A DNA stretch of 64,000 nt, from the IMG/VR virus record IMGVR_UViG_3300020047_005985, positions 44,242 through 108,241 of that record, one strand, 5' to 3'. The stretch's first letter is position 1. Every line of letters begins with the position of its first letter. Positions 375 through 8,500 of the stretch are shown here, one piece after another. Below the pieces are notes generated by a model. It did no database searches and was not told the DNA's origin. It was given only the letters and a program-made list of their open reading frames with translations. Origin of the DNA: a virus. Taxonomy: Duplodnaviria > Caudoviricetes. The position numbers were made by a program, and so were the translations under genes.

Positions 375-2540
375 TTAAAATTTTATTTTAATTGTTCGTT
401 TATGACTACCTGATAACTTCAATATTAACTCCTCGGAAATAGTCGAATTAAAACCCAATCCACACAACTGTTTAGTTGCTGGTTCAAGTTTTGTAGTTTC
501 ACCTAATACTTCCATTACTTTACGATGTTCTAATAAATCAGAATTTAAGAACTCCGTATGAAATGAACGTAAAGCAATATCAGATTTACAATTATCAAGC
601 ATAAACATGTAATGTTTGTTGCCTGTATTATTATCACCCCAAAAGTTAGGAGATAAGCAAACCAAGTTGACTTTATGGAATTGATTGGTATCAAGATTCC
701 AAATCTTCGTAGAAGCAGATTGTGATTCTAAAATCTGACAATTATTTAAATCAGGAATAAATTCTACTTGTCCATTTTTACACAACAGTTTTCCCAATTC
801 AACTGTTCCTTTATGACTAGCCTTAACAAATAAAGATGTGATTTCCCCAAGTATTTCAACTTCAGCCGTAAAATCTGTTCGAACAGTCGGTCCACTATAA
901 TTATGAACAAACAATCTGTATTCACCATTTGGCATAACAGAAAGATTTGAATATGTCAAATTTTCTACACGTTTTTCAGGTGGAAAATGACCATCACATC
1001 CTTGAGCATCCAAATCCAACATTCCTGATGATGGTTGCATACTACGTCTATTACTATAGTAAATTTCATTACCATTAGGCTCTTTACAATGTAAGTCGTA
1101 ATCAGATGTTGTTTTTGGAAAGTGAATACTTACTCGAATAGGAGCTTCAATTTTACCACCTCGATCTTTAACAGCATCTTTAATCATACTTTTACCTGCA
1201 AGATTACCATTATAAGTCCAACCAAAATTGTTAGACCATTTAAATGCTTTCTTACTGTCAGGATTATTTGCCGTATGCAATGCTACTAAGTTACCACTAA
1301 ATCTATTTTCAAGAAAAGCTTCAATTGAAGCGCATGTTGGAAGAATATCCTTCATAAACTTTTCAATAGAAACTTCTTCAATACCATCAAATTGACTACG
1401 TTTATGTTGAGTAGATGTAGATGGTGCAACTTTATCAAATACAGATGCTTGTTTAATAGTATCTGTGCCTACATTTTGGTGAAGAATTTCTGAGATGTTA
1501 ATATCATCTAATGTAGAGAACCTACGATCAAATGATTCTTCGTATCCATTTTCTTCAACAAACTTTTTAGCTTCCGCAATTTGTTTTTGACTAATAGGAG
1601 CAGTAGCTTTCATGTAATTAGCAGGATCAACTCGCTTATTCCATGTAAGTACAGCCTTATTCAAATCTTCCCCCTGTGTTAATTCTACACAAAGAGTTCC
1701 AATTAATTCATTTCTAAATTTAGCAAATGGTAGATTGTTGGATTTAATCCAACACCAATTATCCTTCTCTTTAGTTGGTACATCTTTGTATTCAGTTGCA
1801 AACTCAATAAACTTTTTAAGCTTATCTAAGTATGAATCACCATTCAACAAACTACCTTGTTGAATCAAATCACGCACTAACACTAATGTATCCAATGAAA
1901 TTTCATCAAGACCTCTTTTGAATACATTTTTAGCATCACGATGATTACCTTGAATAGATTCAACTGAGTTACTAGAAAAATCTACAAACTTTTTAGGAAG
2001 TATAGCATTAAAATGATAAAATGTATATACTTGACCTGGAGTAACTACACCAAATTTGTCAGCTTCTTCCTGAGTATAAATTTTGTTGCTTTTTTCAAAG
2101 CCTAATTTATATTCAGCTTGAGTTTTATTTGTAGATTCATAATTTAATAGTCTATTGAGAGTATCGTATGATTCTACAAATACATTTTCAATTGGATTAT
2201 TCTTTAAAAGAAATGCTACATTGTTTGCAGGGCGAGAGTAAATATTATCAGACAGATCTACTGTATCAAACATTGTTACAATCTCACCATTGACTAAAGC
2301 TACAATGTTACCATAACGATGAATAAAATTCTTGTCATGATTACATGTATGTTCAGTAGAATTTGGATCTCTGAATACAGGATCAGCTTCTTTAGTGAAA
2401 CTTGAGATATACTTATCCCAAACTTCATGTCCAGAAATTTTAGATCTGAATAAAACAGGTTGTTCACACATAAATGCAAACTGCTGTTTAATTGCTTTGT
2501 TAAACTCTTGAAATTTCATATTTCGTTGACAGTACTGCAC
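375..2540 (-). CDS. Conserved large phage protein with a C-terminal YfaP/DUF2135-like domain (likely start 2519, MKFQEF)
   Basis: 721-aa ORF; motifs DYDLHCKEP..EIYYSN..GMLDLD..RVENL..GEY..FVHNYSG resemble DUF2135. Confidence 0.6.
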   Translation of the reverse strand: MQYCQRNMKFQEFNKAIKQQFAFMCEQPVLFRSKISGHEVWDKYISSFTKEADPVFRDPNSTEHTCNHDKNFIHRYGNIVALVNGEIVTMFDTVDLSDNIYSRPANNVAFLLKNNPIENVFVESYDTLNRLLNYESTNKTQAEYKLGFEKSNKIYTQEEADKFGVVTPGQVYTFYHFNAILPKKFVDFSSNSVESIQGNHRDAKNVFKRGLDEISLDTLVLVRDLIQQGSLLNGDSYLDKLKKFIEFATEYKDVPTKEKDNWCWIKSNNLPFAKFRNELIGTLCVELTQGEDLNKAVLTWNKRVDPANYMKATAPISQKQIAEAKKFVEENGYEESFDRRFSTLDDINISEILHQNVGTDTIKQASVFDKVAPSTSTQHKRSQFDGIEEVSIEKFMKDILPTCASIEAFLENRFSGNLVALHTANNPDSKKAFKWSNNFGWTYNGNLAGKSMIKDAVKDRGGKIEAPIRVSIHFPKTTSDYDLHCKEPNGNEIYYSNRRSMQPSSGMLDLDAQGCDGHFPPEKRVENLTYSNLSVMPNGEYRLFVHNYSGPTVRTDFTAEVEILGEITSLFVKASHKGTVELGKLLCKNGQVEFIPDLNNCQILESQSASTKIWNLDTNQFHKVNLVCLSPNFWGDNNTGNKHYMFMLDNCKSDIALRSFHTEFLNSDLLEHRKVMEVLGETTKLEPATKQLCGLGFNSTISEELILKLSGSHKRTIKIKF

Positions 2541-2611
2541 ACCTTACTGGTTTAGGTTTAATAATTCTCTATGTGCAACTTGAGAATTTTACTATTGGTA
2601 TTTTAAAATAG

Positions 2612-2684
2612 TCAGGATGGATTGACTCGAACAACCGACCTCTTGCGTCCAATGCAAGCTATCTACCAACTGATATACATCCTG
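2612..2684 (-). tRNA. trnP: tRNA-Pro(TGG), CCA not encoded
   Basis: Acceptor CAGGATG/CATCCTG, D arm TATC/GATA, anticodon stem CTTGC/GCAAG with loop AT-TGG-AC, T loop TTCGAGT. Confidence 0.9.
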
Positions 2685-2815
2685 GAATTATGGGTATTCC
2701 AACCCACGCATTTAACTTGTTTTACATCAAAGATCTTTTGCCTGTAAAGCCTTTAGGAGCTTTCTGGTGCTAAATGTAAAACCTCGTTGCTTATTTTTTA
2801 AAATCTTAAAATTAG

Positions 2816-2966
2816 TAAGGGCAACTGGACTTGAACCAATAACCTCTGTCTAGTTCGGCAACTCCGGCAGGACTCTAACCTGCAACCTTCAGACCTGAGC
2901 CTGACGCTCTAACAATTGAGCTACGGAGTCAATGACAGCGCTCTATCCAAATTGAGCTATACCCTT
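2816..2966 (-). tRNA. Outer tRNA of a nested pair; anticodon loop replaced by an 83-nt insert (2851-2933); identity undetermined
   Basis: Acceptor AAGGGTA/TGCCCTT-A, D arm GCTC-AATTTGGATA-GAGC, anticodon stem CTGTC/GACAG, T arm ATTGG-TTCAAGT-CCAGT. Confidence 0.85.
2859..2930 (-). tRNA. Inner atypical tRNA-like cloverleaf (pseudo-tRNA) inside the outer tRNA's anticodon loop
   Basis: Acceptor GACTCCG/CGGAGTT-G, D arm GCTC/GAGC (loop lacks GG), anticodon stem TCAGG/TCTGA with 6-nt loop CTCAGG, T arm GCAGG-TTAGAGT-CCTGC. Confidence 0.8.
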
Positions 2967-2970
2967 GTTT

Positions 2971-3053
2971 TCTTAATTAACTCCAGAGGATTTCTCCTAT
3001 CTTGCACCACACATAAAAGTGTACTCGTTACTACTGGATATCTTTAATTAAGA
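2971..3053 (-). ncRNA. Putative structured ncRNA between tRNAs
   Basis: 10-bp closing stem TCTTAATTAA/TTAATTAAGA, TCCAG/CTGGA stem, AGGA-GAAA-TCCT GNRA hairpin on the minus strand. Confidence 0.5.
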
Positions 3054-3057
3054 TTTG

Positions 3058-3129
3058 TTGACCCACTAGGATTCGAACCTAGAACCTTCGGCTTAAAAGG
3101 CCGATGCTCTACCATTGAGCTATAGGTCA
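3058..3129 (-). tRNA. trnK: tRNA-Lys(TTT)
   Basis: Acceptor TGACCTA/TGGGTCA-A, anticodon arm TCGGC-CTTTTAA-GCCGA, T loop TTCGAAT. Confidence 0.95.
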
Positions 3130-3231
3130 TTTTAGAATACCACTTAGGAAATCACCCTTTAGAAAAGACTTAGTGGCACGCCTTTAATTCCTTTACGTAG
3201 AATCAACGATTGTTTATTGGAAAAACAATAA

Positions 3232-3366
3232 AAATCCTCCAGCTTCACATGGCTGGCACACGCGATATTTATTTAACCGTTAAATATCTAAATCCGTTTA
3301 TCTAGAATAAACTTAAGGAGTTAATCCGTTTAACTATACGACTATTTAACTCATAGTTGAGGATTT
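3232..3366 (-). ncRNA. Putative multi-hairpin ncRNA directly 3' of tRNA-Phe
   Basis: Closing stem AAATCCTC/GAGGATTT enclosing about 5 hairpins; repeated TAAACGGATT motif. Confidence 0.5.
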
Positions 3367-3367
3367 G

Positions 3368-3440
3368 TGGTGAGAGTTGGACTTGAACCAACGACTTTCG
3401 GCTTTTCAAACCGATACTCTACCAACTGAGTTACCTCACC
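3368..3440 (-). tRNA. trnF: tRNA-Phe(GAA)
   Basis: Acceptor GGTGAGG/TCTCACC-A, anticodon arm TCGGT-TTGAAAA-GCCGA, T loop TTCAAGT. Confidence 0.95.
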
Positions 3441-3447
3441 AAAAAAT

Positions 3448-3541
3448 TTGAGAATTATGCGATCTTCGTATTGACTAAGACTATACACTAGATTTCCATT
3501 CTCTTTTCAATGTAAATTTGACTGGGATTACATATTCTCAA
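3448..3541 (-). ncRNA. Putative structured element 5' of tRNA-Phe
   Basis: Closing stem TTGAGAAT/ATTCTCAA with an internal ATGTAA/TTACAT hairpin. Confidence 0.35.
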
Positions 3542-3723
3542 GGATTGCCTTTGCTTGACCCATTACTCGCGAGATTATAAATCTCCAGTAACATCTTAAT
3601 AGTGATATTGCATCAGATATTAAGCTAACTTAATTTTATTTACACAAATTACCTGTCACTGTAAAATAAAACAGGATTATTGCAATAGCGGTAAAAGAAA
3701 TCACCAATAACCAAGCAATAACT

Positions 3724-4035
3724 TTAGAAATTATTTCTTGTGTTTTTTCTGAAAATCGGTATTACTACTTTTGGTAATTTTGGTAATTTTAAATATTTAT
3801 TAATGATTATATGTATAATCATTATAACACAACTTACACCAGTCGCAGCAAGTAAAACTTTACAATTGGATACTATTGATTCTAACAATTTATCAATCGT
3901 AAACACCTCGCAACTTGAACTTCCAAGCAAATGATTAATGTATGTTGTGATAATTACAATCAAAGATACCATTAAGCAATATATTGCTGCGATAATTAAA
4001 CTTACTTTTAAAATTATTTTTATATCTTCTTTCAT
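3724..4035 (-). CDS. Small membrane protein (2 TM)
   Basis: Two hydrophobic segments; co-oriented with neighbours. Confidence 0.55.
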   Translation of the reverse strand: MKEDIKIILKVSLIIAAIYCLMVSLIVIITTYINHLLGSSSCEVFTIDKLLESIVSNCKVLLAATGVSCVIMIIHIIINKYLKLPKLPKVVIPIFRKNTRNNF

Positions 4036-8243: not shown

Positions 8244-8500
8244 AATACTTTTTATTTTTTGAATAATTGCCTACTCTTTTGAAGGATTTTTGGCATACTC
8301 CTTATAAACCCTCTGCACTCTGTTATAATCATCAATGATTTCATTCCTATCAATTAAGATGGTGTATTAATTTCAACTATAGATTATAACAGCTTACCAG
8401 GGACTAGTGGGAATTAGAGTTAATAGGCAAAACACCCAATAAGAGTGACAAATCCTATTTACCTGCACTTCCGCAAGTGGAGATATTTGTTGCGGTATTT

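What the first reader, a model, noticed from the sequence alone, without database searches (positions are those of the whole stretch)
2612..3541. tRNA-punctuated array of structured non-coding RNAs
Several gaps between tRNAs are filled by elements closed by terminal stems that abut tRNA ends within a few nt: 2971-3053, 3232-3366 and 3448-3541. RNase P and 3' tRNA processing of one minus-strand transcript would release them as discrete ncRNAs (inference). Together with the nested tRNA this looks like a phage RNA operon feeding directly into the 721-aa protein and its partner gene.
Basis: partly seen in the sequence, partly recalled or inferred. Interest (0 to 1): 0.7.

Follow-up and report, generated by a model that had tools for sequence, protein, structure and literature searches.

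The report
Hairpin-clamped spacers in phage tRNA cluster
In this phage's tRNA gene cluster, one gap between tRNAs (and less surely a second) holds a small self-closed RNA-like element that tRNA processing would probably cut free, as in phage T4, but no relatives share them and nothing links them to the neighbouring 721-aa gene.

Summary
Element A (2971-3053) has a perfect 10-bp clamp and fills the tRNA-Lys to next-tRNA gap. That does not arise by chance (0 of 5000 shuffles), and A stays a separate domain when 950 nt are folded together. Element C (3448-3541) also stays a domain, but its 8-bp clamp is not significant alone. Element B (3232-3366) is marginal (p 0.03), and its closure is lost in the long fold. 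Together, three clamps at seven independent tRNA boundaries exceed the genome background (p about 0.001). Fold energies are modest (z -1.1 to -2.4).

No Rfam family matches. No homologue turned up in about 230 related phage loci, in IMG/VR word scans or in prokaryote genomes, so covariation could not be tested.

The link to the 721-aa gene (DUF8224) is not supported. Only 13 of 130 relatives have any tRNA upstream of that gene.

Best reading: these are lineage-specific leader or spacer modules released by RNase P and 3' tRNA processing, as with T4 RNA C and RNA D. Similar 12-13-bp clamps sit just 5' of tRNAs in three other phages. Other notes in this scan cover this same genome only.

The parts
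3448..3541 (-). Element C: 94 nt closed by an 8+3-bp stem that ends 7 nt before tRNA-Phe. It is a long irregular hairpin.
   Evidence: Inverted repeat I7. z -1.75. Kept as a domain in the 950-nt MFE and centroid. The clamp is not significant on its own.
3367..3440 (-). tRNA-Phe(GAA), no encoded CCA.
   Evidence: ARAGORN. Rfam RF00005 71.4 bits.
3232..3366 (-). Element B: 135 nt with an 8-bp terminal complement. It holds a 14-nt direct repeat (3291-3304 / 3323-3336), several local hairpins, and a GC hairpin (3239-3256) followed by a U-rich tract.
   Evidence: I9 and D2. One-sided clamp p 0.031. Centroid almost unpaired. Closure lost in the long fold. Terminator-like hit.
3130..3231 (-). Spacer B2: 102 nt with three local hairpins and no terminal clamp.
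   Evidence: z -1.50. Hairpins kept in the long fold.
3057..3129 (-). tRNA-Lys(UUU), no encoded CCA.
   Evidence: ARAGORN. Rfam 78.5 bits.
2971..3053 (-). Element A: 83 nt. A perfect 10-bp clamp, then a 5-bp helix, then a three-way junction with two hairpins (a 6-nt loop and a GAAA loop). It fills the gap from tRNA-Lys to the next tRNA.
   Evidence: I2. 0 of 5000 shuffles. z -2.16 for the element and -2.42 for the whole spacer. Centroid matches the MFE. Kept in the 950-nt fold.
2815..2966 (-). Outer tRNA (read as Val with a 76-nt insert) carrying an inner tRNA (2859-2930) with a 6-nt anticodon loop.
   Evidence: ARAGORN with introns. Rfam 57.6 bits for the inner tRNA, with the anticodon loop one nt short.
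2685..2814 (-). Spacer D: an AU-rich start, a 9-10-bp hairpin (2719-2782) and a short hairpin (about 2690-2707) 5 nt before tRNA-Pro.
   Evidence: I6. z -1.13 and -1.49. No terminal clamp.
2611..2684 (-). tRNA-Pro(UGG).
   Evidence: ARAGORN. Rfam 58 bits.
375..2519 (-). 714-aa DUF8224 protein (PF26675, phrog_1735), downstream neighbour of the cluster. It is not functionally tied to the cluster.
   Evidence: Model and TerD-like match.

Best explanation
This is a lineage-specific, co-directional phage tRNA cluster: Phe, Lys, a tRNA nested inside another tRNA, and Pro. None of the tRNAs has an encoded CCA. The long spacers contain hairpin-clamped modules.

Two modules fold as separate domains immediately 5' of a tRNA. 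A is 83 nt and ends 4 nt before the next tRNA. C is 94 nt and ends 7 nt before tRNA-Phe.

Inferred mechanism:
- The cluster is read as one minus-strand precursor.
- Host RNase P cuts at each tRNA 5' end.
- An RNase Z-type cut follows each discriminator base.
- A is therefore released as an RNA of about 90 nt. C's 3' end is set by RNase P, and its 5' end is undefined.
- In both, the ends are locked in a stem that should slow exonucleases.

They would then persist as small by-product or leader RNAs, like RNA C and RNA D of the T4 tRNA region. Alternatively, they would simply protect the upstream fragment's new 3' end.

B is not a robust closed element. It is a loose spacer with local hairpins, a 14-nt internal repeat and a weak hairpin-plus-U tract.

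Shown: the positions, the stems and their statistics, the domain behaviour in folds, and the absence of known families and homologues. Inferred: co-transcription, the cleavage sites, RNA stability, and any function.
For: - A's clamp arose in 0 of 5000 shuffles, and its predicted structure is well defined.
- Three clamps at 7 tRNA boundaries against a 3.3% background gives p 0.0012.
- All five spacers cut only at tRNA ends have z of -1.06 or below, against a background mean of -0.40.
- No promoter-like site on the minus strand lies inside the cluster.
- No tRNA has an encoded CCA (sequence), so an endonucleolytic 3' cut is expected from established tRNA maturation.
- T4 precedent: rnaD starts 1 nt after tRNA-Arg, rnaC starts 6 nt after rnaD, and their roles are unknown (PMC3014915). 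rnaD folds with z of only -0.83, so a weak z does not exclude a real RNA.
- Independent analogues: elements of 90-106 nt closed by 12-13 perfect bp and ending 4-6 nt 5' of a tRNA occur in L096, L123 and L218, with z -2.6 to -3.7. The rate is 3 of 289 tRNA-adjacent segments against 1 of 4521 controls, Fisher p 0.0008.
- The L218 element is kept at 95-100% identity in two further records. Its four changes fall in a loop (2), in an unpaired stretch (1), or turn G-U into A-U (1).
Against: - No homologue of A, B or C was found, so there is no covariation. Searches: BLAST against about 230 DUF8224 loci, the covariance model of A over 1.68 Mb, exact-word scans of IMG/VR and prokaryote genomes, and the phage's own genome.
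- GC content is 31-34%, like the genome and unlike the tRNAs at 47%.
- Individual z-scores fall within the lowest 5-25% of random genome windows.
- All clamp pairs are Watson-Crick, so the strand, and even RNA versus DNA, cannot be decided. The plus strand folds as well or better.
- C's clamp is not significant alone. B fails in the long fold.
- The statistical thresholds were chosen after seeing the data.
Confidence: 0.4

Rival explanations
1. The spacers are non-functional filler: leftovers of insertions, deletions or decayed genes in a fast-changing tRNA cluster. The stems are relics or chance, and any released RNA is degraded.
For: No conservation anywhere. The tRNA arrays themselves are not conserved among relatives. 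GC content matches the genome. z-scores are modest. B and C are weak.
Against: A's 10-bp clamp, placed exactly at both tRNA ends, has p below 0.0002. Clamps are jointly enriched. Clamps recur 5' of tRNAs in other phages. No residual similarity to the neighbouring tRNAs. ARAGORN finds no tRNA in A or C even at 60% of its threshold.
Confidence: 0.3
2. The clamps act in cis as processing or stability signals and are not RNAs in their own right. A stem just upstream of the RNase P cut caps the 3' end of whatever lies upstream (an mRNA or a tRNA precursor) and keeps neighbouring tRNAs folding independently. The interior sequence does not matter.
For: Clamps lie preferentially 4-7 nt 5' of a tRNA (A, C, L096, L123, L218). 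In L096 the clamp fills the whole gap between the DUF8224 stop codon and the next tRNA. The interiors are unrelated in sequence. This would explain the lack of conservation.
Against: A simple hairpin would do the same job. Long-range clamps around 60-80 nt of structured interior are an odd way to cap an end. A's interior is itself well folded.
Confidence: 0.15
3. These are DNA-level features. They could be inverted-repeat remnants of small mobile or recombination elements. For B they could be a transcription terminator plus protein-binding repeats.
For: The stems are perfect Watson-Crick pairs and fold equally on both strands. B's GC hairpin plus U tract is called terminator-like. B holds a 14-nt direct repeat at 32-nt spacing and a 7+7 palindrome.
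Against: No other copies of any element occur in the genome. No target-site duplication flanks A (sequence). The repeat word is not enriched elsewhere in the window beyond two local copies. The terminator hairpin is weak: 5 bp, an 8-nt loop, and 4 nt before the U run. No promoter-like site follows it.
Confidence: 0.1
4. This is the first reader's stronger claim: a dedicated RNA operon whose ncRNAs work together with the 721-aa protein and its 124-aa partner.
For: They are adjacent on the same strand, with no predicted terminator between tRNA-Pro and the gene. DUF8224 often lies near tRNAs: 44 of 133 loci have a tRNA within 1.5 kb downstream.
Against: Only 13 of 130 loci have any tRNA upstream, and none has A, B or C. 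The DUF8224 model gives a TerD-like domain with no RNA-related match. There is no Pfam or PHROG function.
Confidence: 0.05

Closest known systems
RNA C and RNA D (species 1 and 2 RNAs, rnaC / rnaD) of the phage T4 tRNA region
   Same: Small RNAs (139 and 119 nt) encoded on the same strand as a phage tRNA cluster. rnaD lies 1 nt from tRNA-Arg and rnaC 6 nt from rnaD. Their function is still unknown (PMC3014915). rnaD also has an unremarkable fold z-score.
   Different: No sequence similarity. rnaC carries a canonical T arm next to its 3' end, which A and C lack. The T4 RNAs were seen as stable RNAs in cells, while these are predictions only.
Theta (minimal HDV-like) ribozymes next to phage tRNAs (Kienbeck et al. 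2024, PMC10879173)
   Same: Structured RNAs of similar size found within about 5 nt of phage tRNA ends.
   Different: cmscan matched no ribozyme family, HDV-like included, at E up to 10. In A only about 3 nt precede the clamp, too few for the 7-nt P1 strand that begins an HDV-like fold (my own reading). The published descriptor itself was not run.
tRNA-like RNAs of phage tRNA regions (YrlA / Y RNA-like, RF02553; tRNA mimics elsewhere in this genome)
   Same: They occupy the same genomic neighbourhood. A weak YrlA-like match lies about 8 kb away in the same genome. A relative has an anticodon-arm-less tRNA-like element filling a tRNA gap.
   Different: A, B and C give no tRNA or YrlA match at E up to 10. 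ARAGORN finds nothing in A or C, and only inconsistent low-score calls in B.

Membership tests
T4-type small stable RNAs of phage tRNA clusters (RNA C / RNA D) | Encoded on the tRNA strand inside a phage tRNA cluster, within a few nt of a tRNA end | tested here: met
   A lies 3 and 4 nt from its flanking tRNAs, B lies 0-2 nt after tRNA-Phe, and C ends 7 nt before tRNA-Phe. In T4, rnaD is 1 nt from tRNA-Arg and rnaC 6 nt from rnaD.
T4-type small stable RNAs of phage tRNA clusters (RNA C / RNA D) | Accumulates as a discrete stable RNA during infection | not testable with these tools
   No expression data are available. This needs a Northern blot or RNA-seq with end mapping.
T4-type small stable RNAs of phage tRNA clusters (RNA C / RNA D) | Sequence homology to rnaC or rnaD | tested here: not met
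   Only chance words of 9-12 nt against the T4 tRNA region.
T4-type small stable RNAs of phage tRNA clusters (RNA C / RNA D) | tRNA-like acceptor plus T-arm end, as in rnaC | tested here: inconclusive
   rnaC has a canonical T arm. A and C have none. B has a 5-bp hairpin with an 8-nt non-canonical loop stacked on its terminal stem, but that fold is not stable in context.
tRNA (RF00005) | Cloverleaf scoring with the tRNA covariance model or ARAGORN | tested here: not met
   No RF00005 match in A, B or C at E up to 10. ARAGORN at 60-70% of threshold finds none in A or C, and inconsistent calls in B.
HDV-like / theta ribozymes and other small self-cleaving ribozymes in Rfam | Match to the family covariance model | tested here: not met
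   No ribozyme family matched at E up to 10 in 2400-3800. The RNArobo descriptor of PMC10879173 was not run.
Intrinsic terminator (for the 3' end of B) | GC-rich hairpin directly followed by a U tract | tested here: inconclusive
   The consensus scan calls 3256-3239 (5 bp, 4 GC pairs, 8-nt loop) with a U-rich tail starting 4 nt later. The shuffled expectation is 0.9 sites and 2 were found.
Miniature inverted-repeat transposable element | Terminal inverted repeats, several copies, and a target-site duplication | tested here: not met
   Inverted repeats are present. Each element is single-copy in the 108-kb genome, and no duplication flanks A.

The most novel reading that the evidence does not exclude
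Hairpin-clamped modules of about 85-105 nt sitting 4-7 nt upstream of a tRNA (A and C here, with unrelated analogues in L096, L123 and L218) may be a recurrent, undescribed class of phage pre-tRNA leader RNAs. RNase P would release them with protected ends, and their variable interiors could carry lineage-specific functions such as decoys or regulators.
Probability: 0.2. Interest if true: 0.55.

Novelty: new member of a known kind. Interest (0 to 1): 0.3.

Why it matters
Phage tRNA clusters have been known since T4 to carry extra small RNAs whose roles are still unknown. If clamped leader modules next to tRNAs are made and kept, they give a simple rule for finding phage small RNAs from sequence alone: look for long-range clamps ending a few nt before a tRNA. 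They would also be a handle on what such RNAs do. As it stands, this locus offers one good candidate (A), one fair candidate (C) and one poor candidate (B), and nothing links them to the DUF8224 gene.

Tried and rejected
- **Homologue searches, all empty.**
  - BLAST of every spacer against 140 and later about 230 DUF8224 loci.
  - Whole records of three relatives.
  - The phage's own genome, for paralogues.
  - Exact words in IMG/VR and in prokaryote genomes.
  - A two-copy motif pattern, which gave only chance hits.
  - A tRNA-Pro anchor word, which found unrelated phages.
  - P0002 as a query in IMG/VR.
  - A covariance model of A. The best foreign hit had E 0.21 and folds differently.
- **Spacers as decayed copies of the neighbouring tRNAs.** Rejected: no local alignment beats shuffles after allowing for 36 tests.
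- **Each spacer displaying its neighbour's anticodon loop.** C contains the exact 7-nt tRNA-Phe loop word and A matches 6 of 7 of the tRNA-Lys loop. Rejected as chance: best p 0.038 among 24 tests.
- **The 8-nt palindrome in A's clamp as a common genome motif.** Rejected: 15 copies, average for AT palindromes.
- **B's repeat word as a genome-wide site.** Rejected.
- **A common alignment of A with the three analogue elements.** No shared structure.
- **RNA enzymes in the phage.** No RtcB, CCA-adding enzyme or Ro60 was found. One RNA-ligase-family match was found.

Full report
**Setting.** The window is bases 44242-108241 of a 108,241-bp phage record with direct terminal repeats. The genome is 30.7% G+C. 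On the minus strand, ARAGORN and Rfam find tRNA-Phe(GAA) 3440-3367, tRNA-Lys(UUU) 3129-3057, an odd tRNA 2930-2859 with a 6-nt anticodon loop, and tRNA-Pro(UGG) 2684-2611. With introns allowed, ARAGORN reads 2966-2815 as one tRNA with a 76-nt insert, so the odd tRNA sits in the anticodon loop of another tRNA. A 714-aa gene follows at 2519-375. It belongs to DUF8224 (PF26675, phrog_1735, function unknown) and is followed by a 124-aa gene (phrog_2018). Four more tRNAs lie further downstream on the same strand, outside the window.

**The observation.**
- A: 2971-2980 / 3044-3053, 10 bp, perfect.
- B: 3232-3239 / 3359-3366, 8 bp.
- C: 3448-3455 / 3534-3541, 8 bp.

A fills its gap, lying 3 nt after tRNA-Lys and 4 nt before the next tRNA. 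B touches only tRNA-Phe and is followed by another 102 nt before tRNA-Lys. C ends 7 nt before tRNA-Phe and has no tRNA on its other side.

**Is it more than chance?**
- For A, no shuffle out of 5000 of the 90-nt spacer gave a 10-bp terminal stem.
- For B, the one-sided test gives p = 0.031. That test's 12-nt edge caught only part of C's arm. An 8-bp clamp at C's position meets a 3.3% background rate.
- At random points of this genome, a perfect clamp of 8 bp or more that starts within 8 nt and spans 45-150 nt occurs at 3.3% of points. A clamp of 10 bp or more occurs at 0.3%.
- Three independent clamps at seven independent tRNA boundaries then has p = 0.0012. These thresholds were chosen after seeing the data.

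Fold energies are modest. The elements give z = -2.16 (A), -1.96 (B) and -1.75 (C). Spacers cut only at tRNA ends give -1.15, -1.11, -2.42, -1.49 and -1.06. Random 90-nt windows of the genome have mean -0.40 and sd 1.20, and 9% reach -2.0 or lower. All five spacers fall in the lower quartile, but only the A spacer stands out.

When 950 nt are folded as one RNA, both the MFE and the centroid keep A (clamp, 5-bp helix and two hairpins) and C as separate domains, along with the tRNA cloverleaves. B's closure is replaced by other pairings. B's own centroid is nearly unpaired.

All clamp pairs are Watson-Crick and the plus strand folds as well or better. The sequence therefore cannot show the strand, or decide between RNA and DNA. 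G+C in the spacers (31-34%) matches the genome, not the tRNAs at 47%.

**What the elements are not.**
- Rfam 15 gives only tRNAs in this region at the gathering threshold, and at E up to 10 it adds only weak sub-threshold matches (two snoRNA families, malK-II, two plastid UTR motifs). No ribozyme, riboswitch, Y RNA or tRNA-like family matches A, B or C.
- ARAGORN at very low thresholds finds nothing in A or C, and only inconsistent calls in B.
- The spacers show no significant similarity to the neighbouring tRNAs.
- The apparent anticodon-loop words in C and A are within chance after multiple testing.
- None of the elements has another copy in the genome, which argues against a multi-copy mobile element.
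- B's 3' GC hairpin followed by a U-rich run is flagged as terminator-like. It is weak, and no promoter-like site follows it.

**Comparative evidence.** DUF8224 is widespread, so I collected about 230 loci around its homologues from IMG/VR and metagenomes.
- The best available relative is 69-70% identical in protein (L061, L062).
- None of the spacers has a BLAST match in these loci.
- The covariance model of A finds only itself in 1.68 Mb.
- Exact-word scans of IMG/VR and of prokaryote genomes find nothing related.

The absence of homologues says little either way, because the tRNA arrays themselves differ completely among these phages.

**The link to the 721-aa gene.**
- Of 130 unique DUF8224 loci with at least 1.5 kb of upstream flank, 13 have a same-strand tRNA there and 4 have two or more.
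- 44 of 133 have a tRNA within 1.5 kb downstream.
- In L061, ordinary open reading frames sit upstream of the gene.

The gene tends to lie in tRNA-rich regions, but the array upstream of it is peculiar to this phage. An AlphaFold model (56 sequences, mean pLDDT 82) matches only TerD-like beta-sandwich proteins, weakly (E about 0.001, probability 1.0, about 160 aligned columns). Nothing RNA-related matched. The operon reading is not supported.

**Analogues elsewhere.** I scanned 289 tRNA-adjacent segments in the related loci with the same clamp test.
- Three segments have perfect clamps of 12-13 bp ending 4-6 nt upstream of a tRNA: L096 2568-2671, L123 7252-7341 and L218 250-355.
- These elements fold with z = -3.4, -2.6 and -3.7.
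- Controls give 0 of 895 in the same loci and 1 of 3626 in this genome at 12 bp or more. Fisher p = 0.0008.
- The elements share no sequence or common structure with A or with each other, and none matches Rfam.
- The L218 element recurs at 100% and 95% identity in two other records. Its four differences lie in a loop (2), in an unpaired stretch (1), or change G-U to A-U (1). This fits the fold but is too little to prove it.
- In L096 the clamped element fills the whole gap between the DUF8224 stop codon and the next tRNA.

Clamped modules just 5' of tRNAs therefore seem to recur in this group of phages as an architecture, not as a sequence family.

**Closest known.** In T4 the tRNA region encodes rnaD (119 nt, 1 nt after tRNA-Arg) and rnaC (139 nt, 6 nt further on). 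A review states that their roles are unknown (PMC3014915). rnaC folds strongly (z -4.6) and has a canonical T arm. rnaD folds with z of only -0.8, so a modest z-score does not exclude a real stable RNA. There is no sequence similarity to A, B or C. Theta ribozymes also sit beside phage tRNAs (PMC10879173), but nothing here matches HDV-like models.

**Mechanism proposed.** The cluster is read as one precursor. No minus-strand promoter-like site lies inside it, and only the weak hairpin in B looks like a terminator. RNase P cuts at each tRNA 5' end. Because no tRNA has an encoded CCA, an RNase Z-type cut after the discriminator is expected from established tRNA maturation. That would free A as an RNA of about 90 nt. 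C's 3' end would be set by RNase P, and its 5' end is undefined. In both, a stem lies within a few nt of the processed end or ends, which should hinder exonucleases. Whether they then act in trans or merely cap and insulate neighbouring RNAs cannot be decided here. I put 0.4 on this reading, 0.3 on plain non-functional filler, 0.15 on a purely cis role, 0.1 on DNA-level explanations, and 0.05 on a dedicated partnership with DUF8224.

**Verdict.** Interest is modest until expression data or close relatives are available.

Noticed in passing
window 2815-2966 (minus): A tRNA sits inside a tRNA. ARAGORN with introns reads an outer tRNA-Val-like gene with a 76-nt insert that is itself a tRNA (2859-2930) with a 6-nt anticodon loop. 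RNase P and RNase Z excision of the inner tRNA would leave a 3'-OH and a 5'-phosphate on the outer halves, but the rejoined loop would be 11 nt. The phage has one RNA-ligase-family match (PF09414, genome 26307-26762, minus strand).
   Followed up: partly
L096:2568-2671, L123:7252-7341, L218:250-355: Elements of 90-106 nt closed by perfect 12-13-bp stems end 4-6 nt upstream of a tRNA in three other DUF8224 phages. They fold with z -2.6 to -3.7, match no Rfam family, and are unrelated in sequence. The L218 element is 95-100% conserved in two more records.
   Followed up: partly
L070:5360-5430: A 71-nt gap between two tRNAs is filled by a tRNA-like element with an acceptor stem, a canonical D arm and a T-like hairpin, but no anticodon arm. 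It gives a weak YrlA-like partial match.
   Followed up: partly
related loci (one search list): Many tRNA genes around DUF8224 in related phages have 6-nt or 8-nt anticodon loops. ARAGORN reports these as 2- or 4-base anticodons.
   Followed up: no
window 8268-8303 (minus): A DUF805b RNA motif (RF02914) scores 42.4 bits, above the gathering score. It lies just upstream of the 231-aa ORF 8243-7548, which has no Pfam or PHROG match.
   Followed up: partly
window 375-2519 (minus): The DUF8224 protein model (mean pLDDT 82) has a part that matches TerD-like beta-sandwich proteins (Foldseek probability 1.0, E about 0.001). No other fold match was found.
   Followed up: partly
L141:6200-6319 (genome 39199-39318, minus): A weak YrlA (Y RNA-like) match of 33.7 bits, E 0.0004, lies in the same tRNA region. 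The genome has no TROVE/Ro60 gene.
   Followed up: no
L150:9740-9839 (minus): A 100-nt near-perfect long hairpin (z -5.5) starts 3 nt after a tRNA-Pro in an unrelated phage contig.
   Followed up: no
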